A DNA stretch of 63,944 nt, counting the filler, from Reclinomonas americana ATCC 50394 (Eukaryota): the NCBI GenBank assembly GCA_048213135.1. It is 16 parts of 16 records of this genome, joined end to end, with 100 filler letters (N's around TTAATTAATTAA, not from the genome) between each part and the next. Parts side by side here need not be neighbours in the genome. Positions count along the whole stretch, not along the records: positions 8,727 to 13,908 come from AFZH01022977.1; 15 more parts are not named here. One strand, given 5' to 3'. Made by a program: the position numbers and the translations under genes. This document shows positions 1 to 57,531 of this stretch, piece after piece (the first letter of the stretch is position 1; each line of letters opens with the position of its first letter). The notes beneath the pieces are model-generated. The model saw only the letters and a program-made list of their open reading frames with translations, ran no database searches and was not told the DNA's origin.

Positions 1-3000
1 ATCGACGGGGAGCACAGCGTGCCGGATCGCTGGACACGACAGACTGGAGTTGCCGTTTCGTTGCCGCTGGTGGAGCGCGCTACCTGATTGATGCGCTGCT
101 GGGTGGCACTGTGGGACTGCAGGCGTCGAGTGTCTCTCGCCATTGCATGTCGGTGCTGTTGCGAGTGGTGGACCACTGCATGAGAAGTGCGTCTTCATGA
201 TTTGTCAGCAAAGCAGATTTTGGCAAACACACACACACACACACTCACGACCATTGCAGTGTGCGCCACTGTTCCGGGCCTTCCCACCCTGTGCTCGGCT
301 GCGGAGCTCGACCGACTCATGGTGCTGTGCATGGACATTGTGGCGGACACCGCCGCACCGGCGCCCGATTCCACCGCCGACGAAGCTGCTCAGCGACTGT
401 TTCGTAGCGCGAAGTCAACCATGATGCATGTGCAGCGCGACCAACTTTACGTGTGCGTGCGTGCAAATGCAGATTCTGCGACCTCGGTGGTCAAGTGGTC
501 CGCCAGGCATTGTCGCTGTTGGCGGCGTGCGTGCATTTGCGTGGCGGCAGCGCGCCTGTGGTGTCGTACGCACGGCGCCAGTCGAACTTGAGTGACTGGC
601 TCCGGCAAGCGCTGCTGAAGGCTCCCAGTTGCGTGCGAATCCTTCGTGGCTTTGTGTCATGGAGAGGTGTGCGTGTGCTCACGTTACACACACTCGCATC
701 ATGCAGCGTCACCGGTGCGTCACGGCGCCGCCGACGGGCTGACCATGTTGTTGCGGCCGGATGTGGCCGAGACGCGTGCAGTGGCGGCCGCAGCCATTCC
801 CAGCTTGCTTTCGTTCTTGCAAGCGGTGCGTGAGTTTCGGTGTGTCGGAGAATGGCGCTGTTGTGTTCTTACACTCGAAGCAGGAGGAACAAGAGATGGA
901 GGGCGATGTGGAGCCGTACTTTGCACTCGTGTCGCGCATTCTGATGTTCCCGCGCGTCAACGAGGTTGTGACCGAGGTGCAGACGCTGCTCGACATGGTG
1001 ATTCGCAAGATGTGCCGACGCCGAGTGATGGAGGTGAGGCGCAGTGGCGGTCTTACGCACAGGCTGTGAGAAGTGTGAGTGCTCACACACACACATACAC
1101 GTACAGACATCGTTTGGCGGTCCCACTTCCTCCGAAGACAAGGTGTTGGTGGGCCTCTTGATTCTCGCCTCCACCCTGCTACGCATGTCGCCACACCTGC
1201 GCATTCGCATCGAGCCAGGCGATTCGACGTTGCGTTGATCCTCCGTCGGGTGGTGAGCGGTGTGTGGTTTCTGATTTTCGGGGCCGTGTGCAGTGCATTC
1301 GATTTGCTGGAGGAGGTCTTTTTCAACTGCCTCTTCGGTGTGTCGCCACTTGAGGACGCCATTCGGTTGGCTGAGGTTCCAGAGTGCGATGTGCCCGCTG
1401 GCAAGAGCGTGAATCCGCGGACGCTACCCAAGTGCAAGATGCCAGTCTCACGCAATGCCGCCATGTCGTTGTTGCAGCAGCTGGCGGCCGACGACAAGGA
1501 TCACTTCCTTCGTCTGTGTGCCGCACTGCGCAGCGAAGTCAAGACACGTTGCGTGCGCACCGAGTCGTGCCCGCTCTATTTTTGCGTTGCTGTGTTTTGA
1601 TGAACTGTTTGCGCAGTGCAACCGCCGAACGAGTACATGGTTGGCTTCGTGCAGAACCAGCGCTCGCCGCTCGGATTCGTGGGCCTGCGCAATCTGGGTG
1701 CCACGTGCTACATGAACTCGATGCTCCAGCAAATCTACATGACGCCGACCATTCGTAGTGCGCTGTTGAGCCTGGACTTGCCGCAGATGCGGCCGGAGCA
1801 ACCCGACGACAACTACACACTGCTCATGCAGCTGCAGTCGTTGTTTGCGTGCGTCACTTACTTTTTGTGATATTTCCGGTGGGCAGTCACTGATCAGTTA
1901 CCGCGCAGGAGCCTGTTCCTGAGCAACAAAAAGTTCTACGATCCCGTGCCATTCACGTCGGTCTACAAGGACATGGACGGCAACCCCATCAATCCGCGTG
2001 AGCAGCAGGACACGAACGAATTCTTCAATGTGCTGCTCGACCGCGTGGAGGCCGCTCTGAAGCACACACCGCAGGTACATTGACAGACATGCCTATGTTT
2101 GTGGGTGCATGCATCGCTTACGTTTTTGTGTTTCAGCCATTCATCTTCCGCGACATTTTCGGTGGCAAGATCAGCAACCAGATCATTTGCAAGGATGTGG
2201 ACTTTGTATCGTCGAACGATGAGCCGTTTTACTCGGTCAGCTTGGAGGTGAAGAATCAGAACTCGATTCTGCAGGTGCGTGCATCATCGAACGGCAGATC
2301 CGCAAGTATGGTGCCTTACTTGTATGATCTGAGCAGAGTCTGGCGTTCTTTGTTCAAGGCGACATGCTCGAGGGCGACAACAAGTTCTACTGTGAGGAGT
2401 TTGATCAGCGCGTCGATGCACTGCGCCGACAGTGCTTCAAAGTTGCGACTGCGTTGCACTGAGCGCGCGCGTGTTGTTCTTGGTTGGCACTAAACTGTTC
2501 CTCCATATCGCAGGAGCTGCCGCCGATGATGGCGCTGCACTTGAAACGCTTCGAGTTCGACTACGAGCGCATGGTCCACGTCAAGATCAATGATCGGCTT
2601 GAGTTCCCGCTCGAGCTGGACATGTTCCCGTACACGGTGAAAGGCCTCGCCCAAAAGGGTCATCCCCTGGCCGGTGGTGCGTCGGCGTTGATGGCATGAA
2701 GCTCTCGTCTTGTGCTTCTGTCTCTCTCCTCACGGCTGTGTGCACACGCTTTCAGGCCTCTCCCGCTCAATGTTCAAACTGGCCAACACGCGCGACGAGG
2801 ACCCCGAATACTACCTCTACGATCTGGTCGGTGTGCTGGTGCACTCGGGTTCGGCCAACTCCGGCCACTACTACTCGTTCATCAAGGAGCGTGAGGATGG
2901 TGGCACGGACGACTCGGGCGGCTGGTACGAATTCAACGACACCACCATTCGCCCGTTCAGGCTGGATGTTGCGTCTGCATGTTAACTGTGGCGTGTGGTG

Positions 3001-6000
3001 GGCGTTTTCTCTGACCCGCCGTCACAGATGCTCGAGCGGGAGGCATTCGGCGGCACCGAGTCGTACACGATGCAAGATGGCACGAAGCGCGACGTTGTGC
3101 GTGCCCAGAACGCCTACATGCTGTTCTACAGACAGCGGCTGTACGCGAGGAAGGCACGCGAGCTGTTGCATCCGTCGTTGACGACGGAGGAGGACGGCGA
3201 AGTGGCTGCCGGCAGTGCATCGGCATCAACAGTGCCTGCTGTTGTTGGTGCTGGCGATGTGGCCGCCGACGCACAGCCTCCACCGCGCCGGCAGCGTCCT
3301 GTCTCTGCCGTGCCCGGTCGACGTGTGGTCATGGCCGACGACGACAAGTTGGTCAGACGGCCGAGTATGGAGGCGCCCGAGTCGCTCGTGACGACCAATA
3401 CGAGTGCCGATGCATTTGACGGCATCGATGAGGAGCGGTCGACCGTGGTGGACGAGGAGGGCGACGAGGGAGGTGCTTCGTCGTCGTCGGCTGGCAAGCG
3501 GCGCTCGGGATCGTTGGTTCTCACGGCTGTTGACCGTGCGCCGCCTGCTGGTATGTTTTTTTCTTGTCGCTTCGTTTTTCGGCGATTCCTCTATCTCATG
3601 GATTACTGACTGGGCGGCTTTGCAGAGGGAGCTGGCTCGTCGTCGTCTGCTGGCGCTCCAGTGCCATTGCGTGGTTCGTTTCCCTGCTGCAGCTTGCATG
3701 TCTCAATGACGTCTCACTTTATTTGTGCGCACGACAGACATGAAGACATTTGTGCTGTCGTATCTGGCGCCGGGCGGTGTGCGGCTACCGCGTGCCATTT
3801 CAGCGCCAGTGTGGACCGAGAATCAGGTGTTGCTGCGTCAGTGGTCCGTCTATGACCCTCAACTGGCGTCGTCGCTCGCCGATATCATGAATGAGCAAAT
3901 CACCCGACGTGAGCGTGCGCGCGGAGGAGCATCGGATCGTTGAGTGCTGATGTGTTCGTGTAGTTGGCGGTATGATCTGCTGCCACTCACTCTATTCGCA
4001 CGGCAGTGTCGGATTCGGATGTGCTGCTCGTGACGGATTTGCTGCTGCACTACACGGCGAATGTGGTTGCTCGAAGTGGCGAGAGCAGTCAGTTTTCGTA
4101 CTGGACGCAGCTTTTGTGCCGGTGGGCGGAGTTGTTCCCGTTGGTTTGTGTTCCATCGTGCACGAGTGTTTTTCCCTGCTTGTGACGCTGGAGTTGTGAC
4201 TCTTTTTTGTGGATAGGCGGCGACGTACGTTGCCGACCAGCTCAGCAACCAGCCCGACTGGCGCAAGAGCTTGCTGTTTGACCATCCGGCCGGCGACGTG
4301 CGGCGTGCATTTGGCGAGCTGCTGTCGCGCTGTGTGTGCCTGCTGTCGCGTGAGGAGAACTTGGAGTTGTATAATGGTGCGCGTGACATTCGATCACCAT
4401 CTTGTGTTTTCTACTTTTGCTGACCGTCGGCGCAGAGTTCGACCCATCGCAATTCGTCTCGGGTCTCACAGCAGAGCAGAGCGACGCTCTCGGTCACACA
4501 CTGTCGGAGCAGCGCTCGATTTTGTATCACGGCTCGTCGTTCACCGTGTCGAAGACGGCGTTGCCGGCACTAGTCAGTGTGCTGATTGACGCGGTGCGTA
4601 CGTTTGTGTGCTTGTGTGTGTCGAGTGCTCGCACGCTGCTGCTGACTCTCTTTGCGTTGTGCAGATTGACGATGCCGGTCTCGCCGGTCGTCGGGCGCTC
4701 GAATACTTCCGCCTGATGGGCACCATTGCGGAGCAATGTGATGTGGAGGTGAGAGACAGCAGAGCATGAAAAAATCAGCAGTATGTCGCCCGCCCTCACG
4801 CTTTCTGGAATCACGCAGCGCGAATGGATGGTGGCACGCGGACTCGTCAGCAAGGTGGTGGCTGTGCTGGAGTCCGAATCCGCTGCAGTGCGACAACAGA
4901 ACGAGCAGCGCACGAGCCTGTCATCGTCGTCGGGTGGGCGCAATCCGTATTCCAGCTCCACTGGTAGCCACTTTTCGACGGCAGCCACGGCGGCCATGGC
5001 CGGCATGGATAATCAGCGCGTGGCGCTTCCAGGCACGGCTGCGGCCTCGGCGGCTCCCGCGTACGGTCCGCAGCCGGCGCCGCGGAGCACGTACCGGTAC
5101 ACTGGCATTGGCAGCAGCAGCTACCGACCGCAGACGCTGTGCGATCGCATCGGCGGTGAAACCCTGCAGCGCGCCATGCGCCTGCTACGCGTGCTGGTCA
5201 CCTCGTGTGGCACCGTGCAGTCGGCCATTCACGGTCCCCCGCCGACACTGTACCTGTCACCACGCAACCAGCAGGCCGACTCGCCGACACAGGGCACCGG
5301 CAGCTCACTGCCGCCCGACATTCGCATGCCTGCACTGTCGCAGGAGGATGTCAAGGCTCTCTTCAGCAAGGTGTGTGTGCGTGTGTGTGCCGCCCCCCCG
5401 GCACGATGTTTGATGGGGAGTTTCGCTTACGTTTAATGGGGGGCTGGCAGTATTTCATTGCGCACGTCATGGAGGAGGACGTGGCCAATGTCGAGTTGTT
5501 CGAGATCCTCGTGCACTGGTGCTGGGAGAGCATCGACATTTCGCGCAACATGGTATGCATGGTGATCGAGAACCTGGATCACTTGCCGTACACCATGTAT
5601 CCGTCGTACCTTGCGCTGCTCGATCGCTTGCTGAATATTCACGACTCGGTCTCGGCCGCACGGTGCGTTCGCTTTTCTCGTGTGCTGTCGCACTGTTGGG
5701 GAGCTGATCACGTATGTATGTGTATGCACACTCAACAGTGTCAAGTACGCCATGGGTCGCGTGCTGTCACTGGTGCGCCAAAACGTGCACAACCGCAACG
5801 CCGCGCACACATGCATGCGCTTTTTGATGGAATGGGAGAGGCCTTCGGAGGAGGCACAGGCGTTGCGTGCCGGTCGGACTCGCCCCCTGCTGCGATCGGA
5901 TAACCTCACTCACTCTTCTGTGTAATCCGCAGGTGGGTACACAACAACATGGCGACGTTGCGCGACATGTGCCAGCAAGTCGGACTGGTCATCAAGGAGA

Positions 6001-6035
6001 AGCGTCCAGAATCGGCATCGGCAGAGCGGCGTTGA
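1..6035 (+). CDS. Large ubiquitin C-terminal hydrolase, USP9/USP24/USP34-like (5'-partial, multi-exon), haplotype A
   Basis: Spliced exons give Cys box [40 protein letters not shown], His box [29 protein letters not shown] and NAYMLFY. The last exon ends ...SASAERR TGA at 6033-6035. All checked introns are GT-AG. Confidence 0.92.
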
Positions 6036-6238
6036 AAAAAAGCAAAGGCGAACTGAGTTCAGAAGCAGCCGAACGAGAGAGAGAATGGAAGAGAGTACAG
6101 CGTGTTCCCATATTTATAACGCGATCGGAAGTCGAGACGGAGTGACTCCGAGGGCCCTCACCAATCATGCATTAAATCCGAACACAAGCGGGCAGACAAC
6201 TTCATTCTTCTTGTGTGTGTGTGAGAGAGAGAGAGAGG

Positions 6239-7232
6239 ATGAGTCGCACAGTGTTGCCTGCAGTGGCTGGCGCGTCGTCTGACCCCAACCTGGAGATCAT
6301 GTACTTTGCGATGGGATGATTTTGGTGCGAGACGGCTTTCGGGTGCGTTGTCTCCCTCTCACTCTCTCGTGACTGTTGCATCACCCGTGGCTCAACTCCA
6401 CCGCGTGCAGAGTCCTTCCGGGAGTCGTCCGCACCAGTGTCGGGTATCAGGTGTGTGATCAGCAGCAACACAGACAGGTGCAATTGATCGGGTCATTGAC
6501 TCGTGCGACTGCAGGGTGGCAAGACCAAGAACCCGACGTATAGAGACATGAAGGACCACACCGAGTCCATGCGTGTCGAGTTCGACCCTCGCCTGGTCTC
6601 CGTCAGCGAGCTCCTCGCGGTCAGTCTTGCGCAGTTGTCGTTGTGATCTTTCCCTTGTCTCATGGTGGGGGCGCGCGCAGGTGTTTTGGAGCCAGGTCGA
6701 TCCGACGCACATGTCCTCGGTGCAGTACAAGTCGGCTGTGTTTTACACGTCGGACGAGCAGGCGGCGATCGTGCGCGACTCGATTCCCAAGCTGCGTGCG
6801 GGTGAGAAGCTCGCCACGACGATCGAGGCCTTCCGTGAGCCGTGGTATCCAGCTGAAGGTCGGTTCTCGTGCGCGACTTGCTGGTGCGCCCCTGTTGGCT
6901 TATCGTGCGTGCGCGAACCAGGGTATCATCAAAAGTACTATCTGCGCCACCGCTCGGATCTTCTTCGAGTGCTCGAGGAGTCGGGTGTTGACATGGCCGA
7001 CGATGTGGCAGTGACGGATTCGCCATTGGTTCGTCCAGCAGTCAATGGTGGCTGGTGTTGCCGAGTTGTCTTACCGCGTGTGTGCTTCTTGCAGGCCACC
7101 AAACTCAACGCCTACGCCAATGGGCTCGGCACGGCAGCGTCGGTGGAGCGCGACGCAGCGGCGTTTGGACTCGGTCCCGAGGCCGTCGATGTGCTGCGCA
7201 AGTACATCCGCGGTGCCGGTGGTCGACGCTAA
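6239..7232 (+). CDS. msrA: Selenoprotein peptide-methionine (S)-S-oxide reductase MsrA, Sec27 (TGA 6317-6319), haplotype A
   Basis: Exons 6239-6342, 6411-6450, 6515-6619, 6681-6858, 6922-7028 and 7095-7232 total 672 nt (223 aa). Motifs: FAMG[U]FW, TSVGYQGG, NPTY, DHTE, QYKSAVF, AEGYHQKYY and C-terminal ATKLNAY. The TGA sits exactly at the catalytic Cys of GCFW. Confidence 0.93.
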
Positions 7233-7313
7233 CAGGAGGGCGAGGGGTGGGTGGCGGCGCCGACAACTGGCGCGTGATGACGGAGGACGTGATGGAGTTC
7301 TGTGTGCCAACGG

Positions 7314-7375
7314 ATGACGTTGTCAGCAACAAGGAAGAGACGGTAGTTCGTTCATTCTTCCTGCTGACGACTGAT
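7314..7375 (+). promoter_or_regulatory. Eukaryotic SECIS element (type II-like) in msrA 3' UTR
   Basis: ATGAC (7314-7318) and TGAT (7372-7375) form the non-Watson-Crick core. Stem GTTGTCAGCA/TGCTGACGAC, unpaired ACAA (7329-7332) and apical minihelix GGAAGA/TCTTCC. Lies ~80 nt after the stop and is identical in haplotype B. Confidence 0.88.
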
Positions 7376-7519
7376 GCGGATCGCGCCGACTTTTTTTTTC
7401 TTGCTGTCGGCGCCCCACACATGGCACAACTCTGTCGCGGCCATCCATCGTCACGCGATTCTTCGTGTGCTGTCGCAAACAATGAACCGAGGCATATTCA
7501 GCTGCTGTCATCTTCCTCC

Positions 7520-8432
7520 TCACGGAGACTTGGCGCCCGACTTCTCCCACGGCTTGCGTCGCACACTACTGCTCTTGCTGCGTGTCACCGCGGAGAGACT
7601 GGCCGTGCGCGCCAGTGGCGACCCACCGTCGTCACTGCTCGCCATCGAGGCCGGCGGTCGTCCGGCTGACGGCAACGGCGCCGGCATCGATGGCAGACCG
7701 ATGGCATCCGCCGGCACCACAAACGACGCCGCAAACGGCACGCCACGCACGGCCTCCAACTGCACAGCCGAGCTCGCCAGCTGCGATCGCGACTCGACAA
7801 ACATGCGGAACTCGGTCTCCAGCATCGCCACCAGCTCACCATCCACGCTCTCCAACAGCGTGGCAGGCTTGCGTGTCGCCAGGCTGAACGCACAAACACG
7901 ATGAGCGATCGCCGGAAGCATCACCACAAACGAGCCAAAAAACAACAATGCAACTCGTGTCGCACGCCACTGCTGTTGATCGCTTCCTCGTGCTGCGGCT
8001 GCCTGCTTTCGCCTTCCTCCTCCTCCTCGCCGTGAGTCTGCGTGCCTTGTGTGCGCATCACTCGCTTCTCTTCTTGCTCCACTCGTTGTGGTCGCGCGCG
8101 TCGACGAGTCAGCCACAACAGCATCGAGGCCAGCTGCGCGCGGAACAAGCGACGACGATGCACTGCACGCGGGATGCATCAGCACACGCTCACACACAAC
8201 AAGAGAGAGAGAGAGAGAGATCGACCTTTGTTGATACGCTGCAGGTGCTCATGGACAGCCTCGTCGACTTGACGCTGCACCGAGTCGCGTCGCCACCATC
8301 TGCATACAGCATGCACAATGATTGAAAGACAGCGAGGAGCAAGTCGAAAGTGCCACGCAACTCGCTTGCTGCATAGGAGACCAGTGCGCCCACAAGAGCG
8401 CTCAGTGCAAACGACCACCATTGGTCGCGCAT
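7520..8432 (-). CDS. Hypothetical membrane protein (probably one intron), haplotype A
   Basis: ATG 8432 MRDQWWSFALSALVGALVSY..., hydrophobic segments and a long open frame to 7520. The frame is open in both haplotypes, with indels concentrated in a GA-rich putative intron (~8180-8225). Confidence 0.5.
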
Positions 8433-8726
8433 GCACAGTCGCGAAAAAAAGCGGAGAAGAAAGTGTGAGAAATTTTCGCTCGGAGTTCAGCGCGCGTTCA
8501 CTTTTGTTTGCCAGCGTGTTTGTGTGAGAAAAGAGCTCGACACCAACATGGCAGGTGTGTGCACCGCGCACTGTCTCCTCCCTGTCTGCCTGTCTGCGTG
8601 TGTGCTTTTTTTCGTGTGTGTGTTTGNNNNNNNNNNNNNNNNNNNNNNNNNNNNNNNNNNNNNNNNNNNNTTAATTAATTAANNNNNNNNNNNNNNNNNN
8701 NNNNNNNNNNNNNNNNNNNNNNNNNN

Positions 8727-11700
8727 TTCTGTTCAACGACTCGCGGGTCGTGAATCCAGAAGAGGTGGGGAGCGAGCGCGTGGTCAGGCGGCCTGCAAGA
8801 TAGGCCGTCACCAGGGCAGCCACATCGAGGTTGACCTGGACGTGGTCGCCAGAGGTGGTCGACACTGCGCGTGACAAATGAGCACGACTTGCACATTGCA
8901 ATGAGCAGCCACATCGTCGTTGACGCAACCGTCCAGCACAAAGGAGAGGGAGAGGCTCTTGTAGCCCGACGGCACATTAAATGACGGCGTGACATCGGTG
9001 GCTTTCTCGCTACTGGCGTCCGAGGACAACACCGACCGGTATGATACTGAACATGGAGACAAGGCGAAGGGTCAGCAACAATCCGGCTGCAGGCACAACA
9101 ACGCGGATGGTGTTTTTCTGGAACGAACCGTTTGCCGAGGTTCCGGTCGGTGCTAAAATTTTGATTTGCACAGGCCCCGCAGCCGTGCTCTGACTGACGG
9201 TGAGAGGGGCGACTGCGGATGTGATCTGCGTCGAGACGACCACCAGCTGGCACCGGCGACCGTCGTAACCCGAGTTGCACACACACGGTTGTACGGCGTC
9301 GGGATTCTCGGTTGAGCACTTGCCGTGTCCGTAGCAAATGACGGACGAATCGCACACTGCGCGCCGCGAGGTGAACACACCACTCCGACACAGAAGAAAA
9401 TGTGCACCATCGATCCGCAAGCCACTCAACTGTTCGGCGTGGGTGTGGGCTCGTCTGGCGGCGGTGCTGGCGTCGGATTCGTCGTGTTTGTGTTGTTGAC
9501 AAACACAAAATCCGTGCACTTGGGCAGTAGGAACGGAGCCGTACAATTGGTGCAATACTGTCCCTCCCAGTGGCCGTACCAGTCGGTCTTGTAGCATACG
9601 CACACGCCGCTGAGATCGCACACGCCGTGCTTGTTGCAGGTGTAGCGCCCCTGGCACACTGCGAATTCCAAAGAACGCGCACTCGTGTCAGCCATCCACT
9701 GAAACTCACACACCAGCACACACACACGCACCAGACGACAACCAGCCACCGACACGAGTGAACGAGGGCTGACCGGGTGGCCGCAGACAAAACGTATAGT
9801 TGCCGACATCGATGCCAGCAAAGCTGTACGACAGCTGCGACCCGTCGTCATTGACAAGTGTGTCATTGGGCCTGTTGCATCCTACGTCTGCGCAAGCTCC
9901 TTGACAGACTCGTGCCTCGTAGCCGAGTTTAAGGCCAATGCCGATAATGTACAGGCGGAATGAGCGACGTGCGATGACGGACGTGGGATAGTACGAGTCG
10001 ATGGTGGGTCCCGAGGCTGCAGTAACAACAGCATTGGGTATGGAAAAAAAAGATGTTGCCACAAACCGGTGCAGTGCGCGCGCACCTTCGTACACCGAGG
10101 AGCCGACACGGACAGCAGACATGGCGCCGGCGTACTTGATGCACACGTACCATGACGAGAGTGGGAGAGTGCCGTTGAAGGACACAATGAGCTGCGTGGC
10201 GGAATTCGAGACACTCATCACCATCGGAATGAACTTGTTGGGTCCGAAGACGGTGCAGTTGCCGCTGGTGGAATTGACCAGCGTGATCACATCACCAATC
10301 GTCAGTGACGTACCCTGCAGCGGCGCGCGCGTGAGAGAGAGGGAGAGAGAAAGAGACAAGAAGGGAGCAGCACTACACATATCACACACCTGCACACTGA
10401 TAGTGTGTTCCGTGTCGTTGGCCAGCGTGCGCGTCGGCGTGAAAAAGTTCACCGTCGGTGTGACTGCGTTGCGTGATGGGTGAGTCCCCTTGACAGCAAC
10501 AATGAACCGGCGATAGCGACGCACCAACGCGCGGGTCAAAGGCACCGTGCAGCGAGTGCTCGTCGAGGAGCGAGGCACCTGAGCGCTGCAACACATTGTT
10601 CTCAAAGTAGTTTTGCACATTCTGCGACACGAAAAAGCCCTCCACCGCCTGTGCGCGAACGGATCGTGTCAGCCTTCATGCCGTCTTGCAAGCACTCACA
10701 CAAGCAAATGACGTAACCGTCGGCGAAGTTGCAGCCTGGTGCATGTCGGTGAGAATATTGTCGACGAACAGCGAGTGGCGCACCAGGCTACCGGCGGACA
10801 GTGCCCTCCCACACTGCGCACGGCATGTGAGGAAGACTTGCGGACAGATGCAACACAACGTGAAGAAACCCGAGAACGCACCCGCTGGAACAACGACGCG
10901 GTCACTTCGCTATTGTCGGCATCGTCGGCATGGATGGCCGCACCGCCAATGTCGGTGAAGCGCGAGTGGTGCACCGACAATTGCGAAATGCTCGACACGG
11001 CCTGAATGCCGGCCGTCGACTGTCCACACACCCCATGGCGGTGAGCACACCCGCAGCAACAAGCAATCAAAGAGTAGAAGAGAGAACACGGATACGAAAC
11101 ATGACGATCCAGGTGCACGTTGCGAATGGTGACACGCGAGACGCCGCTGGCTATTCTGATGCCCACCGGCGAGACGCCCACTCGGATCGACAGTGGCGCA
11201 ACCCCCGACACAGTTCTCACATACACTGTGCCACGCACGGACACGCACACGCAGTAGTCGGTCACTGGTGCACTTTACACACACGCAAAGCATCGTCACC
11301 CCCCCGCACGCAACAGATACTGTCGACATCATCAAAGAAGTAGACATTGCGACCCTCCGCCGCCGACTCTGACAGCTCCTGCACAGAGCTGCACGAGCAC
11401 GACTTCGTCAACATCATGCAGCTCACGGAACAAGATCCTCCCTCCCTCACCTTGTCGCCGAAAACGCATGGGTATCGAGATCGAGCACAACGCCGAGTGA
11501 GCCACGAAAGTGCGGCACCGAGGCCGCCAAGTCGACCTTGTACACCCCATTCTCCACTACTTGCCACGCCGTATCATCCACCAGCGCAAGCGCCGACAAC
11601 AGCGGCAGCGCCGTGCTGCCCACAGTATCCGGACGCGACGCATAAAAGCCCTGCACCTGCTCCGGATCCTCGATGTACGCGTCGACAATCGTGTCGGGCA

Positions 11701-12096
11701 GCGCCACCTCGAGCGTGCCTGTGCGGAAGGCTGCTGAGCACACTGTGCCACTCACCTCCAGAGTGTGAGTGCGTCTGTGCACGCACCTGGAAACACATCA
11801 CCACGACGCAGACGAATGACAGTCGGCCGACCGGCCACTGCCGCCTCCTCGAGGGCCTTGCGTCGTCGCCGCAGCACTCCATTCAGCTCAGAGAGCGAGC
11901 CAAACGGGTTCCACACACTACCTCGCGTTCTCCACGGCGCTGCCGACGATAATGACGCCGAAGTCGACACATGATACACAATGGCATTATCCTCCACGTC
12001 GTTGTCATACTCCACATGCGCTGTGCCTCGTACCGCGACGCACACAAGCAGCGCCGCCACGGCTAATAGCACGACGACAAGAGGCACTCCTCTCAT
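8727..12096 (-). CDS. Large secreted/surface protein: signal peptide, pectin-lyase-like beta-helix, Ig/IPT-like and EGF-like modules (3'-partial), haplotype A
   Basis: Signal-like N-terminus MRGVPLVVVLLAVAALLVCVAVRG; IRLRRGDVFPG; GIRIASGVSRVTIRNVHLD; EGF-like CNKHGVCDLSGVCVCYKTDWYGHWEGQYC and CYGHGKC...CVCNSGYDGRRC. Confidence 0.7.
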
Positions 12097-12160
12097 CACG
12101 AAGTAACCCTATTCTTGCAACCGTCTGAATATTCGCCCGCCGCACGGTGACCCTTTGGTA

Positions 12161-12525
12161 ACCCAAGATGATCGCGACGGGGCGAACGGGGAAGGGTCTG
12201 GGGCCAAAGATCGGTCACAAAAAAGAATGGATCTTGGTCCCTGAAAAGAATGGATCTCTCAGCCGGAGCTGTGAAAGCAGACAATTGCCGCGAAATTGCA
12301 GCCGGGAAATTGGCACATTTCCGAAAGTGGACGCTTGCAGCATGCAGCTGACTATCTTACGTTAACCAAAGCAGTCTAGAGGAGCACGCAGAACACTAGC
12401 CTCCGTGCTATCGCTGTTTTGGCACGTTACCAAGAGGTTTTGTTAGTCAATTCCACTCGATCAACTGATTCGGGTCACAGGTCTCGCACAGCCCCACCCA
12501 AGATGATCGCGACGGGGCGAACGGG
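12161..12525. mobile_element. Haplotype-specific 305-bp insertion (12191-12495) flanked by a 30-bp direct repeat
   Basis: ACCCAAGATGATCGCGACGGGGCGAACGGG occurs at 12161-12190 and 12496-12525. The other haplotype has a single copy (37443-37472) and no insert. Confidence 0.8.
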
Positions 12526-13908
12526 CACACAAGCGTATCTGCAGGCCCTCGAGATCCGACTCGGCATCATCCAGCTGCAGGATGTTGCGTGCGCGGGGTG
12601 CTTTTCACAGACAATCATTGTTTTTCGCGCGCTCTGACGACGGTTGTCTCTCTCACTCTCACACGCTCTTCCAACGCACAGCTGCTCCAGACGTTCTCTG
12701 ATGATGTTGCGCAGTCGCACTTGTCTGCCTACGTGCCTGTCCTTTCTTCCATGCACGTGCTCATCGCTTGCCCACTTGTCTCTCGGCAGCCTGGCGAGGC
12801 ATCGATGCGTGGCGAGATCGAGCAGCTGCAGACGGCGCTGAAGCACTCGCCGTATGAGGAGCGATTGCGTCACATGCCGCGCACAGAGGTGGAAGCGGAG
12901 ATTCGGCGGCACTCGTTGCGTCGCTCTGTGTGTGTGTGCAAAATCGTTACAACGACTGATGTCGATCGCTGGCAGCCTTCAACAACCACGAGGCGAGGGC
13001 GTGGCAAGTGGGCAGCGATCGCCACTGGTGCCCACTGATGTGCGCAACTTGCCGCGGGCGGTGCTGGGCAGTCCGGAGTCGATGGGCACGCTGGAGAGTC
13101 ATGAACACGAGCGTGACGATGACGACGATGATGATGGTGATGATGAGGGCGAGGGTGACGATGGGCACGGCAGCATGTCAGGGTCGCCATCGCACGATGT
13201 GCGGCAGTTGGAGAAGCTGCACGTGCGCGCTGAGGAGCTGGTGAGTGACACGTGTGTTATTCTCTCGCTCTGCGCGGTCTGACTGGTGTGGCAATGGGGC
13301 AGGAGAACCTGCTTGCACAATGTGCAGCGTGGCTACGTACGCACAAGTTCCAGGAGATTGTCGAAGCCGTGGCGCCGTTTGACCCAGAGGAGAACGCACG
13401 CAAGAATGTGAGTGAGTGTGCCTCGTGAAGCGTGCACGATGCTGACAACAAATGACGGTCCCTTTCTCAGCGTCAATTCCGCGTGGGCGATCGCGTCGCT
13501 GTCGGCGACTTGCTGCTGCTTGGCATCGTGCGATATTTTGGCAGAGCCAACGTTGGAGACGGCGACTGGGTCGGCGTCGAGTTGGATACTGATGGTGTGT
13601 GTGTGGCGGCAGAAGTTTTGCTTCGATAGCTCATGCGTGCATGCTGTGCAGACGGAAAGCACGACGGCACGGTGAACGGACATCGATACTTCCAATGCGC
13701 CGCCACGCGTGGCGTGTTTGCCAAGCCCGAGCATGTGATGCACTACTGGAAGGAGGTGTGTAGTGCGCCCAATAGCAGGCTCGATCGAGTGACTCAATCT
13801 TCTCTGCGTGATGGCAGTCGACGGCCACGGATGCCACCTCGCCATCCAATGTTTGGTGACGCAGCACACCGTGCACTCATCCTCTTGCTCTTTGTTTCAC
13901 ACGAAATC
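12503..13908 (+). CDS. CAP-Gly domain protein (multi-exon, 3' end uncertain), haplotype A
   Basis: FRVGDRVAV...GIVRYFGRANVGDGDWVGVELD / GKHDGTVNGHRYFQCAATRGVFAKP matches the CAP-Gly GKNDG motif. Confidence 0.85.
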
Positions 13909-14008
13909 NNNNNNNNNNNNNNNNNNNNNNNNNNNNNNNNNNNNNNNNNNNNTTAATTAATTAANNNNNNNNNNNNNNNNNNNNNNNNNNNNNNNNNNNN
14001 NNNNNNNN

Positions 14009-16035
14009 AAAAAAAAACAGACATCATAGGACAACGCACCTCCGATTTGAATGCTGGCCAGACGAGCGTACGAGTTGTAGGGCGGCGGAGCACCGGCCAA
14101 GTCAGTGGCCGACGGCCCATGCCAGCGGACGCACACTGTGCACCACAATTAAGTAACTAATCGCGGTGCGAGACAAGAAAATTGCTTCCTCACGCACCGT
14201 CGTACAGTCCCGGCTGCGCGTAGATGGTTGGCGTGTTCGGATCGTCGACAGTGTTGACAGTCAGCGTGTACGTGCCAATGGCGGCAGTGCCAGTGAAGGA
14301 ACTGGCCGTGACCCACGTGCCCGACGCGGGCGCTGCAATCAGGCAGGTACCGCCAGCCGACGGCTGCACCAAGACGAATGCCAAGGCGTCGCCGCTGACG
14401 TTGCCCGGATTCATCTCCACGTTGAGGCGCAAAGTCTCGCCGATACGAGCAGTGCGGATGGGCAGACTCGGTGAGTTGTACAGATTGGCTGCGCACATTA
14501 CACAACTTTGTTGTCAGTTGCAACACCTCCTGACACACTAGGCGGCGCGTTGAACGTACCAACACGCAGGCGGACAATGGGAATGTAGGTCGGCGTGTTG
14601 CTGGTCGTGTCGAGCGAGAAGCACAGCATGTCGGGACCATCGGGCATGGCGTTGTTGGCGACGGTGAACGTCAGATCGATCTCGGTGATGGCACCGGCTC
14701 CTGACGATGGGAACGTCTGCATGACTTGCACGGTGTCCTCCGACGAGCCGCTGCAGTCGGCGGTCTCGAACACGGCCCAGCCAGTGGTCGGATAGGTCGG
14801 ATCCTGCGGTCCGACAAGGCCAGAGCCGAGAATACGAATCGCGTGCGGGTTCGAGGCACCGGTAAAGGTGATGCGAGACGGAGTGGAGATGGTTGCTGTG
14901 TTGCAAAAAATATAATGTTAGGAAGATGGTGGTGTGGGAACAAACGAAAAAGGAGAAGGATCGCAGAGAATATATAAAAAAAAAATACGCAACGGCGAAT
15001 GTCGATCTGTCCAATGGAGGCGTAGTCACCAGTGGTGTGCCAGCGAGCGCACAGACGGTACGAGCCGGCCAGCGCAGTCGTCGAGCCAATGATGGTGCTC
15101 ACTTGCAACTGCATGCGTCCGCCCGGCGAGGCGCCGGTGAGCGACAGGAACTCCACCGAAGTGCCGTCGATGGGCGAGAATGCCGTCAGTTGGCACGTGT
15201 GCGAGATGTAGAACGCCGAGAAGTCGCCCAGCGTGCTGCCCATGTCGTGTCCGTCCAGCGTCACTTGCACGCCCGTCACACCCGACGGAAGCACACCCGG
15301 AGTGGTCGGCTGCAGGAAGCTGACTTCCGGCGTCAAGTTGGCCACACGAGCTGTCGCACACGAGTAAGAACACGAAAGTACAAACAAGGCTACGCAGAAC
15401 AAAACGAAAAACCAAGGGTGACACACCAACTTGCAGCGTACGCAGCGGACGCCAAATGTTGCGCGACGGAGCCGTGGGAATGTTGGCATTCTTCTGGCAC
15501 AGGAAGAACAGTGGCCCACTGGCGCTGGTGGCGGCCGACACGAAGAAGTTGAAGGTGGCCGAAGTGTCCGCGGGCGACGTCACCGTGATGACGGGAGTGA
15601 TGTCGGACTGCTCCGTGCAGTTCTCGTTGGCAAACACAAAGAAGGTCTGTGTCGGGTCGCTGGAGCGGAAGCCGGCGCCAATCACCGTCAGTGCTTGGGT
15701 CGGCAGAGGCGGGAACTCGGCATGAGTGCCGTGGTGCAGACGGAGCGGCGATGCCGCCGGCTGCGTCACGAGCGCCGTCACGTCAAAGTAGGCCAGCGCA
15801 GCGTGCGGCTGCAGACCAGCGTCACCAATCCAGGAAACGCACAGGTAGTACGTGCCACCAGCGGCTGGCGCTGGAGCCTCGTTAAGACTGATGGTCAGCA
15901 CCAGCGACAGTCCGGAGGCTGTGCCGGTGATCAGACTGCCAGACAGCTGATTGCCCGGCGAGCACGAGATGCTGTCGGCGAGGAAGACTTGGTTCGGGCC
16001 GAGGGACAGGAAGACGGGGTAGGCACTCGGCACAC
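14009..16035 (-). CDS. Internal fragment of a repetitive beta-sandwich surface protein, haplotype A
   Basis: S/T-rich exons with recurrent Y/F-x-L-C motifs (GTYYLCVSW, LFFLCQK, GSYRLCARW, DMLCFS) separated by GT-AG introns. Similar in style to the 8727-12096 gene and may be part of it. Confidence 0.6.
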
Positions 16036-52627: not shown

Positions 52628-55499
52628 TTAGTAGCGGTACCGCCCGCCGGTGCTGGAATTGTACGGCGATGCGCCGTATCGAGACGAGTACTCGTTAGTT
52701 GAGGTCAAGTTCGTCGTCGTGGTGGTGGAGCTGACAACTCCGGCGTGTCGACGCGTGCCGCCGACACCGTACTCGACAGTGGCCAGCGGTGGTGTGCCGA
52801 CCGGCAACACGCCATACGTTGACGGTGGTGGTGCCGACGACGCAGCGGCGGCGGCAGCCACGGCCGCAAGTCTCGTGTCCAGTGCATTGCGCAGCTCGGT
52901 CTCGGCCGCCGACCGCATCTGCAGCACGTCGAGGCGCGCCCGAGCCCACTGCACCAACACACGCGCTCACTCAGCAAACCCAGTTGTCGCTTCTCCGACT
53001 ACCACCACCACCACCAACCTCATTTCGCTCGCGCGCCTCCTCTGCCTCGCGCATGCGCAGCTCCTCGACCTCGCGCTGCAAGGTCACCAAATCCGCATGC
53101 TTCTCCGACAAGCGGCGCTCCAGATCATCGGAGCGCGCTCGCTCACGTTGCAGCTGGTCACTGAGGCTGCGCACGGAATCCTGCGCGTCGGAGGCGTCGG
53201 CCTCGTGCAAACGCGCCTCGGCCACCAAACGCTGCGCACGATCGGCCTCGCTCGCTGCCACTGCCAGCTGATCGGCCAGCCGTCTCTCCAGTGAGCTCAC
53301 CAGCTCACGCTGCTCCTTCAACTCCAGCTCCATGGCACGAATGTGTGACTGCGCGAAGCAAAAGGTCAGTCAATCAGACGACAACACTGCATCACTCACA
53401 CACACACACACATTGCTCTTCCTCGCACCTGCAAGCTCTTGTTCTCCGAATTCGTGTTCGCCAGCATATCCTGCAGCTCTACGACACGGTTCTGTCCCAA
53501 ACGCTTCTCATCCTCCAACCCAGCCACCTCCTGTGCGCGCTTGCGGAGATACGTGTTTGTGCTGGCCAGCTCGTCCAGCTTGTCGTTCAAATCACGCTGG
53601 AGGTTGTCGCGCTCGGCCATCGTCTGCCTCTGCATGTCGCCCAGCATCTGAATCTCTCTTCGCGCGTCACTGAGCAGATTGATGCGGTGGTCCAGCTCGC
53701 GCTTCGTGGCCTCCAGTTCGTCCTTCACATTCGTGTACTTGGCGCCGAGCTCCGTGTAGTCCAATTTCAGCGCCTCGTGTCGGTCGGGGTGTACCAAGCG
53801 TGCCGTCTCCGCATGAGCACTCTGCGGCGAGACAATGAGAAAATCAGTGAATGCTCTTTCCCCTTTGCCATCCCTCTCCCAAAGAAAAAGCACACCTCCA
53901 ACTTTCGCTCCAGAATGTGCACGAGTTCCTGCGTGCCGCTGAGCGCATCGGCCAAATCAACATTCTTCTTGTTGATCCGACTGACTTCCTCCTGCAGCTC
54001 CAGGCACTCGCGCTGCAACAGGGAACGCTCTCGTTCAGCCTCCCGCAGCCGTCGTGTCATATTGACCGTGGTCTTGCGAATGAACGCAAGCCCCTTGCTG
54101 GCCGTGTTGATCTGATTGCTCATCGAGTGAGACGACACGCCGCGCAGCTGGCGACGGCGGTCAAACTCGCGCTCGCCACGCGCCAACGCCGCCACCAAAG
54201 CCTGTGAGTGCTCGGCGGAAACATTGACATCGCTCGCTGCACCGAGGCCAAGCGACGAGACCGGAGTGCCGTCCATGTGAGCCACCAGTCGCACAAACAT
54301 CTCCACCTCGGCGGCCGGCCCGTACGAATCGGTGGAGAGCGGCAAATCTGCAACACGACAACAGAAACAGTGAGCACACTTGTGACTTGTCTTGTGTGCA
54401 CCACCACCACACACGTACCGAGGTCGCGCACTGGATGAGTGGGTGGGGCCAAGAAGACACGATCGGTGCCGATGCGACCCGAGTACGCAAACTCAGGCTG
54501 CCGACTGGCTAGTCTTATCAGACGGCGCGCGGCAATGACGGCAATGGCTGCACCGCGGAACGACGTGCGCGGCCGCGTGCGACGAAGACGCTCCTCCTCA
54601 ATCTCGGCAATGCGGAACTCACCCGTCATGGCCTACGCCGCAGCACCATCAGTACCCGAGGCCGCAAGCATTGTCAACAAGCATCCACACACACGCGCTC
54701 ACCAGCACCAACTCCATAATGTTCTGCCGGGTCTTCTCCGACTGTTGCAACTCGCGAGTGAGGATGATCTTTTGCTCCCTCAGCTCCACCACGCGCATGC
54801 GCAGCGGTCGCAGGCCGCGGATCAACAGCTTCAGTCCTCTGCGCCACCAAGAATCAGCGCACAGACACTCCACACGCAATGCAAGGAGAAGGAGACGCAA
54901 CGCGACGAGCTGGCGTTGCCGCTCCGCCGAGTCATTCAGCTGTTGTGTGATCAACTCGTTCGACACGTTGACCTTGCGGTTGGTGACGTTGAGGGCAGAG
55001 TTCTCTTGCTGCACGCGACTGAGTACATCCTCCGTGTCCTGCGTAGCGTGACGAAACAGTGAGCCTCACGCTCAGTAAAACTGAAAGAAGCGAAGAAAAT
55101 AAATGTTTCGCATCCTCTCTCACACTTTCTCTCCCTCTTTTCTCTCTGTCTGCTTGCCTGTCTCTTTTCTTCTGTGTGTCTCTCTTTCTCACACACACAC
55201 ACTATCTGCCTACCTTTTCTCTCTCTCCCTCTCCCTCTGTCTCCCGTCTCCTTCTTCCTCTCCCCCCTCTCTCTCTTTGTCTCTCTGTCAATCTATCTCT
55301 CTTCATCTCCCTCTCGCACTCAACTTTCTGTCTGTTTTGCCTGACGGTTTTCCTCCCGCATCTTTCTGTCTCTCTCTCTCCCTCTCTCTCNNNNNNNNNN
55401 NNNNNNNNNNNNNNNNNNNNNNNNNNNNNNNNNNTTAATTAATTAANNNNNNNNNNNNNNNNNNNNNNNNNNNNNNNNNNNNNNNNNNNNTCTCTCTCT

Positions 55500-55559
<60 letters not shown>

Positions 55560-57531
55560 CTCTCTCTCTCTCTCCCTCTTGCACTCATCTTTCTGTCTGT
55601 TTTGCCTGACGGTTTTCCTCCCGCGTCTATCTGTCTCTCTCCTTCCCTCGCCCTCTGTCTCACCTCTCCATCCGCTCCTCTCCCTCTCCCTCTCCTTCTC
55701 CCTCTCCCTCTCCCTCTCCTCTGTCTCCCCTCTCCGCCCCACAACTCACCCGCAGGCGGTGATGAAGCTCGCTAACAATCTCGCTGTGAATGCGCTCCAG
55801 ATCCTGCCTCTGCTCCTCCAGCGCCAGAGTCTTGGATCGCTCCAGTTCGGCTTGTACTCGTTGAGCCTGCTCCCAGAACATAATCAGCACACCGCACACA
55901 GGAGTGAGAGAGGGCGAATTGCGCGATTCACGCAACATTCTCCCACGACTCCTGCAACGACTGCTGCGTCTGCACCAACTTCTTGTCGAGTTCGTTGCGC
56001 ACAGACTGCTCCAGTCGCAGTTCCTGTAACAACACGCACAACGCGCACAGCGTGAGAACGAGAGAAAAGGAAGAGTGAGGGCAGTCACACCAACCTTGCG
56101 CAAGCTCTCGCGCGTGATAATCGCGTTCGTGACTTCCTCCGTGATGGAGGCCTTGACACTCGCCCAGGAGGCGTCGTCGGGTACCATGCGACTGCAGAGA
56201 TGAAGCAATAGGATCAGCTGATTGCACTCCCCATGTGCAAGCAATGCTTCGACGAAACGATCGACCAGGCGACATGGCATCCATGCGGTTGGAGTCCTGC
56301 AACTGGCGCACCATCGATGCTACAAAATCGGTGCGCTCGTGCAAATGGTCTTCCAGCTGACGGATACGGCCACGATTCTCGGTGCACTGGTTCTCCAGCT
56401 GTGCGCGCTCGTCGCTAAGGAGGCGCACCTTGACCTGAATGTCGACCAGCTCACGCTTGACCTGCACACACGTCCCTTCACATCAGCGACGATTTCTAAT
56501 TTCCCTCTTTCTCTCCTCCTTCTCCTCCTCTTCTTCTTCTTCTTCTCTCTCTCCCTCCCTCTCCCTCATGCACTCCTACGCAACATCCAAAATCTCCTTG
56601 TGGAGCTCAGCACGCTCGCGCTCCTTGTTTGCCGCATACTGCTTCGTGCTCTCCAGCTCCTGATGCAGCGCGCGTGTGCGATCGCGCAACAATCGAACCT
56701 ATACACGCATCAATACAGAGACGCAGTGAGTCTCCCTTTGACTCTCCCTCTCTCTCTATCTCTCTCCACACAAACCTCATGCAGCGAATCGCGAATGCGA
56801 TCCTTCACTCCAATCACCGTGTTGCGCATCGACTCCATGTGCAGGAAGCGCGACGGACTGGTCTCCACCAAAATCGACGGGTCACCACCCGAGCCCGACA
56901 ACTCCGCCTCCACTTGTCGCGAGATCAGACCCAGCTCGCTGTTCAGCTGCGCCACGGCCTCATCGTGCCGACGACGAATTTCATGCTCGTCTTGTTGCAC
57001 CTGTGACGCACACGTGTGTGTCAGTCGCCTCTCCCGCAACACACCGCCACCTCCCACTATTCTCCACCACACCTGATGCAGCTCGTCGCGAAGTCTTTGC
57101 ACGGCACCACGGTACTCCTCCACCTCCGCACTGAGGAACTCGACCTGACGACGCTTGTCGACGAGCTCCGACGACGGGCTGCGAATACCAGCATAGCGGT
57201 TGGTGAGTTCCTGAATGTGGNNNNNNNNNNNNNNNNNNNNNNNNNNNNNNNNNNNNNNNNNNNNTTAATTAATTAANNNNNNNNNNNNNNNNNNNNNNNN
57301 NNNNNNNNNNNNNNNNNNNNTGAGCGGAAATCGATCGTGCGAATGATGATGATGACAAAGCCGAACCTCATAGGTGGCCACACGTGATGGACCAGTCGGC
57401 GTCGAGAGGGACGCTGGAGGCGGGTTGTACAATGGACGCGATCGACCGGGCGATCCATACGCGCCTCCTGCTGTTGCAGATGACGACGATCGCACTGGCG
57501 ATGCCGAGTGCAAGTGGCGTCGATGATCCAT
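52628..57531 (-). CDS. Long coiled-coil protein, CCDC171-like (spans two gaps)
   Basis: Heptad-rich exons. LLIRGLRPLRMRVVELREQKIIL...SFRGAAIAVIAARRL resembles the CCDC171/PACT-type FRxxxIAVxAxxRL motif. The start at 57531 is tentative. Confidence 0.6.

What the first reader, a model, noticed from the sequence alone, without database searches (positions are those of the whole stretch)
12161..12525. Polymorphic 305-bp element with 30-bp target duplication over a start codon, possibly spliced out in frame (introner-like)
Seen: present in haplotype A and cleanly absent in B. The 30-bp duplication includes the CAP-Gly gene ATG. The insert is lower in GC, lacks clear TIRs or a poly(A) tail, and has an internal AAAAGAATGGATCT repeat. 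It carries GT five bases inside its left end (12196), a branch-like CTGAT (12465) and CAG four bases inside its right end (12491). Splicing 12196-12491 gives in-frame MIATGRTGKAPPK-MIATGRTGTQAY. Known: most TSDs are much shorter than 30 bp, and introners create introns by carrying splice sites. Caveats: in-frame by chance is 1 in 3, and the nearer CAG at 12480 would be out of frame. If unspliced, the first ATG becomes a 65-codon decoy uORF.
Basis: partly seen in the sequence, partly recalled or inferred. Interest (0 to 1): 0.7.

Follow-up and report, generated by a model that had tools for sequence, protein, structure and literature searches.

The report
One-off insertion duplicating a start codon
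One of two near-identical copies of a protist gene region carries 305 bases of foreign DNA flanked by a perfect 30-base duplication that includes the gene's start codon; the insertion looks real, but nothing shows that it is a self-copying, intron-making element.

Summary
Copy A has a perfect 30-bp direct repeat (12161-12190, 12496-12525) around 305 bp of unique, lower-GC DNA. Copy B (37443-37472) has one repeat and no insert. It is the only indel over 18 bp in about 14.5 kb of aligned A/B sequence.

The repeat spans -7 to +23 of the start codon of a real, spliced CAP-Gly gene, whose 828-nt reading frame is intact in both copies. That start lies only about 72 bp from the start of a divergent neighbour gene.

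The introner-like reading is not supported, but it could not be tested directly, because no genome and no sequencing run were available. Four points count against it:
- The proposed donor GTCTGG resembles none of the gene's 7 donors.
- The proposed intron (296 nt) is 3-5 times longer than the gene's six introns (57-98 nt).
- The first AG after the branch-like motif is out of frame.
- 19 of 120 GT..AG pairs are equally in frame.

The repeat contains no GT, so the indel cannot be an exact intron gain or loss.

Best reading: a single insertion at two nicks 30 bp apart. It is most likely retroposon-type, or else DNA captured during break repair. The left ATG becomes a 65-codon decoy. Interest is low to moderate.

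The parts
12161..12190 (+). Left copy of the 30-bp target duplication. It contains the decoy ATG at 12168-12170.
   Evidence: Perfect match to 12496-12525 and to the single copy in B.
12191..12495 (.). 305-bp inserted sequence. It is unique in the window, has GC 0.505, and has no TIR, no poly(A)/(T) and no recognisable RNA gene or coding potential.
   Evidence: Absent from copy B.
12496..12525 (+). Right copy of the 30-bp duplication. It contains the ATG (12503-12505) that continues into the CAP-Gly reading frame.
37443..37472 (+). Empty (uninserted) site in copy B, with the ATG at 37450-37452.
12168..12365 (+). 65-codon decoy ORF opened by the duplicated ATG, out of frame with the main ORF. 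Further upstream ATGs lie at 12227 (5 codons), 12250 (33) and 12342 (7).
12213..12257 (.). Internal 23-bp tandem duplication (two copies, 86% matching), each copy carrying AAAAGAATGGATCT.
12465..12491 (+). 3' splice-site-like stretch at the right end of the insert. CTGAT (branch-like A at 12468) is followed by CACAG ending at 12480 and CACAG ending at 12491.
   Evidence: Chance frequency of such a motif is 1.3-1.6% of positions. Usage is untested.
12503..12583 (+). Exon 1 of the CAP-Gly gene (27 codons), followed by a GTTGCGT intron at 12584-12681.
   Evidence: The seven-exon model 12503-13755 gives 828 nt with 0 stops in both A and B. Exons differ at 11/828 nt and introns at 28/416. CAP_GLY Pfam halves.
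11787..12096 (-). First exon of the divergent neighbour gene (ATG at 12096-12094, signal-peptide-like N-terminus). Its start lies 71 bp from the left ATG in A, and 72 bp from the gene's ATG in B.
   Evidence: ORF. GTGCGT donor at 11786 seen. Spacing read.

Best explanation
A single, fairly recent insertion happened in copy A at the 5' end of a CAP-Gly gene, inside a head-to-head promoter of about 72 bp.

Mechanism (inferred). The target DNA was opened by two nicks on opposite strands 30 bp apart. A pre-existing 305-bp piece of non-coding DNA or cDNA from elsewhere was joined in. Fill-in of the 30-nt single-stranded flanks then produced the perfect duplication. The most likely agent is the target-primed reverse-transcription machinery of a non-LTR retrotransposon acting on a short non-autonomous or 5'-truncated template, because that is the known process that routinely gives long target duplications without inverted ends.

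Consequence (partly inferred). The right-hand copy keeps the genuine start codon and an intact gene. The left-hand copy stays next to the old promoter. A transcript starting there would carry about 335 extra leader bases with four upstream ATGs, including a 65-codon decoy ORF, and this would be expected to lower translation of the copy-A gene.

Shown: the structure, the empty site, the intact gene in both copies, and the decoy ORF. Inferred: the direction (insertion in A), the nick-and-fill mechanism, retroposon involvement, and the effect on expression.
For: - Exact 30-bp repeat with sharp boundaries and a clean empty site in B.
- It is the only indel over 18 bp in about 14.5 kb of aligned A/B sequence, and the only isolated long perfect direct repeat around unique DNA in the window.
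- The junctions lie 3.4 kb and 1.4 kb from the contig ends, not at an edge.
- The insert is foreign to the locus. Its similarity to either flank on either strand is no better than shuffles: 20 to 300 of 300 shuffles scored at least as high.
- GC is 0.505 against 0.60 in the flanks.
- Age: the flanking repeat differs at 0 of 30 positions, while the internal 23-bp repeat differs at 3 of 22. This suggests the insert arrived as an already old sequence. With A/B intron divergence of 6.7%, an insertion as old as the A/B split would keep 30 of 30 identical only about 12% of the time (my calculation).
- Long duplications are documented for non-LTR elements: 22 bp for an EhSINE1 site (PMC1635306, figure legend read) and 20 bp for reptile Utopia (PMC4640811, passage read).
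- The gene is intact and constrained in both copies: 828 nt, 0 stops, 3 of 276 residues differ, and exons diverge 1.3% against 6.7% for introns.
- The ATG is preceded by an in-frame TAA two codons upstream, and the neighbour's ATG is about 72 bp away.
Against: - No second copy of the 305 bp is known, so nothing shows it belongs to a repeat family. The whole assembly could not be searched.
- There is no poly(A), poly(T) or simple-repeat tail at either end.
- There is no tRNA-, 7SL- or 5S-like head: ARAGORN found 0 and Rfam found 0 at E up to 10.
- No reverse-transcriptase gene was noticed in the window. The one earlier scan note on a reverse transcriptase in this assembly describes a bacterial-type gene (unchecked).
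- The direction of the event rests on parsimony, because there is no outgroup.
- Whether A and B are alleles is unverified.
- The expression effect is untested.
Confidence: 0.42

Rival explanations
1. Break-repair capture. A double-strand break with 30-nt staggered ends in the open promoter region was repaired by end joining that filled in the overhangs and ligated in a stray 305-bp fragment of genomic, organellar or cDNA origin. No mobile element is involved.
For: - The insert has no transposon hallmarks: no TIR, no tail, no RNA-gene head.
- Only a single copy is known.
- It carries internal direct repeats, like 55 of 90 Daphnia neo-introns ascribed to staggered-break repair (PMC4202315, abstract and passages read).
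Against: - The direct repeats left by such repair in Daphnia are 4-12 bp (PMC4202315, passage read), not 30.
- A 30-nt overhang needs two independent nicks.
- The insert is not templated from nearby DNA.
- Its internal repeat is already diverged (3 of 22), so it was not synthesised at the time of repair.
Confidence: 0.27
2. Introner-like element. The insert carries a donor 5 nt inside its left end and a branch site plus acceptor 4 nt inside its right end. It is spliced out of the copy-A transcript and always adds 39 nt (13 codons), so the protein gains a short N-terminal extension.
For: - Joining 12195 to 12492 is in frame and free of stops.
- CTGAT + 23 nt + CAG resembles the 3' ends of this gene's introns, which have CTGAT or CTGAC 16-25 nt before the CAG.
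- Such a motif occurs within 15 nt of only 1.3-1.6% of positions.
- Introner families that add codons are known (Aureococcus, +12 nt; PMC9860276, legend read).
- Non-LTR-derived introners are known, about 5% of classified families (PMC12130899, passage read).
Against: - Donor GTCTGG matches 0 of the gene's 7 donors (3 GTTGCG, 2 GTGAGT, 2 GTGTGT).
- Its length of 296 nt compares with 57-98 nt for the gene's introns.
- The first AG after the branch motif (12480) is out of frame.
- 19 of 120 GT..AG pairs are equally in frame.
- The TSD is 30 bp against the 3-9 bp described for introners (PMC9860276, passage read).
- No TIR, and no second copy found.
- No GT lies in the repeat, so the mRNA cannot be restored exactly.
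Confidence: 0.06
3. Copy A is the older state, and copy B lost 335 bp by recombination or slippage between the two 30-bp repeats.
For: Deletion between direct repeats gives exactly this pattern: one repeat kept and clean flanks. No outgroup is available to set the direction.
Against: It only pushes the same insertion further back in time. With neutral A/B divergence of 6.7%, two old repeats would stay 30 of 30 identical about 12% of the time. An old decoy ATG with four upstream ATGs in front of a constrained gene would probably have been selected against.
Confidence: 0.1
4. Assembly or cloning artefact in the 5.2-kb contig that carries copy A.
For: The assembly is highly fragmented: 16 contigs in 64 kb, with both copies breaking at the same places. 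No reads could be inspected.
Against: Chimeric joins do not create a perfect duplication with collinear flanks on both sides. The junctions are far from the contig ends. The insert matches no E. coli, plasmid or phage sequence.
Confidence: 0.07

Closest known systems
Introners (intron-generating transposons; Gozashti et al. 2022, PMC9860276; 2025, PMC12130899)
   Same: A presence/absence insertion in a gene region of an intron-rich aquatic-type protist, flanked by a target duplication, with GT and AG a few bases inside its ends. A constant, frame-neutral addition (+39 nt) would parallel the Aureococcus family that adds 12 nt.
   Different: Introners are defined as families of many similar copies that sit as spliced introns. 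Here only one copy is known and splicing is untested. The TSDs described are 3-9 bp, against 30 bp here. The donor does not fit the host's donors. The site is the start codon and promoter, not the interior of a coding exon.
Non-LTR retroposon insertions made by target-primed reverse transcription (for example EhSINE1 of Entamoeba, PMC1635306; Utopia, PMC4640811)
   Same: A long target duplication of the order of 20-30 bp, no inverted ends, a size of a few hundred bases, and non-coding content.
   Different: No 3' tail or simple repeat, no polymerase-III-type head, and no partner element or sister copies identified.
Neo-introns and filler insertions from staggered double-strand-break repair in Daphnia pulex (Li et al. 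2014, PMC4202315)
   Same: A unique, non-repetitive insert bounded by a direct repeat of the target, polymorphic between alleles, and carrying internal direct repeats.
   Different: The flanking repeats there are 4-12 bp and the inserts lie within coding exons and are spliced. Here the repeat is 30 bp, the insert sits on the start codon, and splicing is unknown.
Templated sequence insertion polymorphisms of humans
   Same: Short stretches copied from distant loci, inserted once, some with target duplications made by LINE machinery.
   Different: The source locus is unknown here, and the LINE-mediated human class carries poly(A) tails.

Membership tests
Introner | Many near-identical copies in one genome, most of them lying as introns in genes | tested here: inconclusive
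   1 copy in the 63.9-kb window. No other long-TSD structure around unique DNA in the window. The whole assembly is not held. The metagenome scan returned only unrelated tandem repeats.
Introner | Removed from the transcript by the spliceosome | not testable with these tools
   No sequencing run was listed for the locus.
Introner | Functional splice sites supplied by the element ends and/or the TSD | tested here: inconclusive
   GT lies 5 nt inside the left end, but as GTCTGG, unlike 7 of 7 donors of the same gene. CTGAT...CAG lies 4 nt inside the right end and is host-like. There is no GT in the TSD.
Introner | Short TSD (3-9 bp) and/or TIRs in the DNA-transposon-type families (not universal) | tested here: not met
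   The TSD is 30 bp. No terminal inverted repeat. Range taken from PMC9860276 (passage read).
Non-LTR retroposon / SINE insertion (TPRT) | Target duplication of variable, often long, length and no inverted ends | tested here: met
   30-bp perfect duplication and no TIR. 20-22 bp examples are in print (PMC4640811, PMC1635306).
Non-LTR retroposon / SINE insertion (TPRT) | 3' poly(A), simple-repeat tail or LINE-matching 3' end | tested here: not met
   Neither end of the insert, on either strand, carries an A/T run or a microsatellite. A LINE-matching 3' end cannot be checked without the genome.
Non-LTR retroposon / SINE insertion (TPRT) | tRNA-, 7SL- or 5S-derived head (for SINEs) | tested here: not met
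   ARAGORN found 0 genes in the window. Rfam found 0 matches at E up to 10 in 11900-12800.
Non-LTR retroposon / SINE insertion (TPRT) | Dispersed family of copies | not testable with these tools
   No genome held.
Staggered-break repair insertion (Daphnia-type neo-intron) | Unique insert bounded by a direct repeat of the adjacent target sequence | tested here: met
   However, the repeat is 30 bp against the 4-12 bp reported (PMC4202315).
Staggered-break repair insertion (Daphnia-type neo-intron) | Insert lies in the transcribed region and is spliced | not testable with these tools
   No RNA data.

The most novel reading that the evidence does not exclude
The insert is a young member of an undescribed introner class. 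The class would move by a nick-and-fill (retroposon-like) route, make a 30-bp target duplication, carry both splice signals a few bases inside its ends, and therefore always add exactly 39 nt (13 codons) wherever it lands. Here it would be caught as a presence/absence difference on a start codon. Nothing I could run excludes this. The host-like branch-plus-acceptor at the right end (1.3-1.6% chance) and the multiple-of-three addition are its only support.
Probability: 0.06. Interest if true: 0.7.

Novelty: new member of a known kind. Interest (0 to 1): 0.27.

Why it matters
If it is what it most likely is, this is one more insertion polymorphism. It is a tidy natural example of a start codon being duplicated so that the original ATG becomes a decoy in front of an intact gene, inside a promoter of about 72 bp shared with a divergent neighbour gene. 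It could be used to ask how this protist chooses transcription and translation starts. It would matter more only if the assembly holds further copies with about 30-bp duplications, or if RNA shows the insert being spliced out. In that case it would show intron creation by an element with an unusually long, frame-neutral footprint.

Tried and rejected
1. Whole-genome copy count: no genome is held for this window.
2. Sequencing runs: none was listed, and no RNA holder was listed. Read support and splice junctions therefore could not be examined, and read laying was not used.
3. Metagenome scan with the twice-occurring 12-mer and a variable gap: 6 loci, all unrelated low-GC or other contigs where the 12-mer is a tandem repeat.
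4. Protein search with exon 4 of the CAP-Gly gene, longer lengths: 576 candidates, none at E <= 0.001. No annotated or transcript-derived N-terminus was obtained.
5. Rfam and ARAGORN: nothing.
6. RNA folding of the insert: z = -1.3 on the plus strand and -1.9 on the minus strand, unremarkable.
7. Templated-insertion idea (insert copied from its own flanks): rejected. Local alignment scores were no better than shuffles. The best hit, 20 of 25 bases to exon 3, was matched or beaten by 20 of 300 shuffles.
8. Imperfect extension of the duplication beyond 30 bp: none.
9. Cloning-host or vector origin: no match in E. coli genomes, plasmids or phages.
10. An unbiased splice-site model from the window: five attempts were too noisy or drifted onto coding sequence, and are not used. 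They were ORF-constrained pairs, a coding-score filter with expectation-maximisation, and acceptor-anchored enrichment. The donor comparison therefore rests on the 7 hand-checked donors of this one gene, plus earlier scan notes.
11. The AAAAGAATGG motif as a general start context: one similar site at 50891-50911 in front of a likely first exon, but the two gene starts at this locus do not share it. Left open.
12. Earlier notes of this scan: none for this place. The look-up by sequence gave only a chance match in another genome.

Full report
**What the window is**

The 63,944 bases are not one stretch of chromosome. Fifteen identical artificial linkers (44 N, TTAATTAATTAA, 44 N) join 16 small contigs. 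Contigs 1-3 (2-16033, 'A') are collinear with contigs 5, 8 and 9 (19485-40973, 'B'). Identity in the three aligned blocks is 97.4%, 96.1% and 98.1% (8341/8561, 3808/3961 and 1979/2018 aligned bases). Both sets break into contigs at the same homologous points. They may be alleles, haplotigs laid side by side, or a young duplication. I keep the labels A and B without deciding. No whole genome is held and no public sequencing run was listed for the locus.

**The observation**

A perfect 30-bp direct repeat lies at 12161-12190 and 12496-12525. The same 30 bases occur once in B, at 37443-37472, and shuffled windows give none. The repeat cannot be extended on either side. B runs straight from the left flank through one repeat into the right flank.

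In the A/B alignment, this 335-bp gap is the only real indel longer than 18 bp in about 14.5 kb. The large 'gaps' at 8727-9703 are simply the unaligned start of a B contig. It is also the only isolated long perfect repeat around unique DNA in the window. The other long repeats all lie in tandem arrays at 42.1-42.5, 45.6-47.1 and 55.2-55.65 kb.

The 305-bp insert has these properties:
- GC is 0.505, against 0.60 and 0.59 in the flanks.
- It has no second copy in the window.
- It has no inverted ends and no A or T tail.
- It holds no tRNA and has no Rfam match even at E = 10.
- It has no unusual fold (z = -1.3 and -1.9) and no ORF of note.
- It contains a 23-bp tandem duplication (12213-12257, 86% matching) and two weaker internal repeats.

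**The gene**

Starting at ATG 12503, seven exons (12503-12583, 12682-12705, 12790-12914, 12976-13240, 13303-13407, 13471-13594, 13652-13755) give 828 nt without a stop in A. The corresponding B exons (37450-38706) also give 828 nt without a stop.

Exons differ at 11 of 828 bases (3 of 276 residues), and the introns at 28 of 416. This fivefold contrast supports the model and shows that both copies have been under constraint. The last two exons carry the two halves of a CAP-Gly domain: PF01302 positions 1-35 and 37-65, at 29.6 and 41.6 bits against a cut-off of 26.5.

The ATG is preceded by an in-frame TAA two codons upstream. A divergent gene with a signal-peptide-like start begins only about 72 bp away on the other strand (ATG at 12096-12094 in A and 37377-37375 in B). 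The duplicated 30 bases therefore run from -7 to +23 of a well-supported start codon, in the middle of a very short shared promoter region.

**Would the insert be spliced?**

This could not be tested with RNA, so only the sequence signals can be weighed.

- Length: the six introns of this gene are 98, 84, 61, 62, 63 and 57 nt. The proposed intron is 296 nt.
- Donor: the seven donors are GTTGCGT (twice), GTTGCGC, GTGAGTG (twice), GTGTGTG and GTGTGTA, identical in A and B. This agrees with earlier notes of this scan that the organism uses GTGCGT-type and GTTGCG-type donors (AI notes, tested here only on this gene). The proposed donor is GTCTGGG.
- Acceptor: on the 3' side the insert does look host-like. 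CTGAT sits 23 nt before the CAG at 12491, and this gene's introns have CTGAT or CTGAC 16-25 nt before their CAG. Such a motif within 15 nt of a given position is found at only 1.3-1.6% of window positions. However, an earlier CAG at 12480, 12 nt after the branch-like A, is out of frame.
- Frame: the in-frame result is confirmed but is weak evidence. Of 120 GT..AG pairs at least 40 nt apart between the two ATGs, 19 give an in-frame, stop-free fusion.
- Exactness: the 30-bp repeat has no GT. No canonical intron can therefore coincide with the indel, and a spliced A mRNA could never equal the B mRNA.

My attempts to build an unbiased splice-site model from the window failed, and I do not use them.

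**Where the insert came from**

It is not copied from the neighbouring DNA. Its local alignments to the flanks, on either strand and with 100 to 400 bp of flank, are no better than those of dinucleotide shuffles. It matches nothing in E. coli genomes, plasmids or phages, so a cloning-host artefact is unlikely.

The flanking repeat is 30 of 30 identical, whereas the internal 23-bp repeat has 3 differences in 22. This suggests that an already old sequence was inserted recently. With 6.7% neutral divergence between A and B, an insertion as old as their split would keep the repeat perfect only about one time in eight (my calculation).

**Mechanism**

A 30-bp duplication means two nicks 30 bp apart, followed by fill-in.

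- Cut-and-paste transposons and the introners described so far give 3-9 bp (PMC9860276, passages read).
- Break-repair neo-introns of Daphnia give 4-12 bp (PMC4202315, abstract and passages read).
- Non-LTR elements are the known source of long, variable duplications: 22 bp at an EhSINE1 site (PMC1635306, figure legend read) and 20 bp for reptile Utopia (PMC4640811, passage read).

I therefore favour a retroposon-type, target-primed insertion of a short non-autonomous or truncated template (0.42). The expected 3' tail, a SINE head and sister copies were either not found or could not be looked for. Capture of a stray fragment at a staggered break comes second (0.27). The remaining readings are deletion in B (0.10), an artefact (0.07) and a working introner-like element (0.06).

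**Consequence**

If transcription still starts at the old promoter, the copy-A mRNA has about 335 extra leader bases with four upstream ATGs, at 12168 (65 codons), 12227 (5), 12250 (33) and 12342 (7). This should depress translation from the true ATG at 12503. This step is inferred, not shown.

**Verdict**

The introner-like interpretation is not supported by the signals that can be read, but it is not excluded. It is most likely a single insertion of a known general kind, of modest interest. That would change only if a search of the full assembly or RNA data shows otherwise.

Noticed in passing
window 8627-8726 and 14 further sites: Fifteen identical artificial linkers (44 N + TTAATTAATTAA + 44 N) join 16 small contigs. 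Features that appear to span them are not contiguous DNA.
   Followed up: yes
window 2-16033 versus 19485-40973: Two collinear, 96-98% identical sets of contigs break at the same homologous points. B has two extra contigs (28176-34742) where A has a gap. They could be alleles, haplotigs or a segmental duplication; this is not resolved.
   Followed up: partly
window 12682-12705: A 24-nt micro-exon lies between two GTTGCG-type introns (98 and 84 nt). Skipping it, as one 206-nt intron, would also keep the frame, so its use is uncertain.
   Followed up: partly
window 12584, 12706, 12915 (and 37531, 37650, 37859 in B): Three of the seven donors of the CAP-Gly gene are GTTGCG(T/C). This fits the second donor class reported by earlier notes of this scan for the same genome.
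   Followed up: partly
window 12097-12167 and 37378-37449: The start codons of the CAP-Gly gene and of a divergent signal-peptide/EGF-like gene are only about 72 bp apart. This implies very short 5' leaders and a tiny bidirectional promoter.
   Followed up: no
window 45592-47086: A tandem array of units of about 435 bp, 83-87% identical, lies in a lower-GC stretch (0.48-0.50). Smaller repeat clusters lie at 42136-42545 and 55218-55649.
   Followed up: no
window 50891-50911: GCAAAAAAGAATGGAGCTC resembles the motif repeated in the insert. Here it sits directly on the ATG of what looks like a first exon, with an open frame running into a GTG-type donor. It is possibly a start-codon context shared by some genes.
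   Followed up: partly
window 47280-47301: A contig ends in GGGTCAA heptamer repeats, possibly a satellite or a chromosome-end repeat.
   Followed up: no
window 12863-12886 versus 12467-12491: The right end of the insert resembles a stretch of exon 3 of the same gene (20 of 25 bases). In one search, 20 of 300 shuffles scored as high, so this is probably chance.
   Followed up: yes
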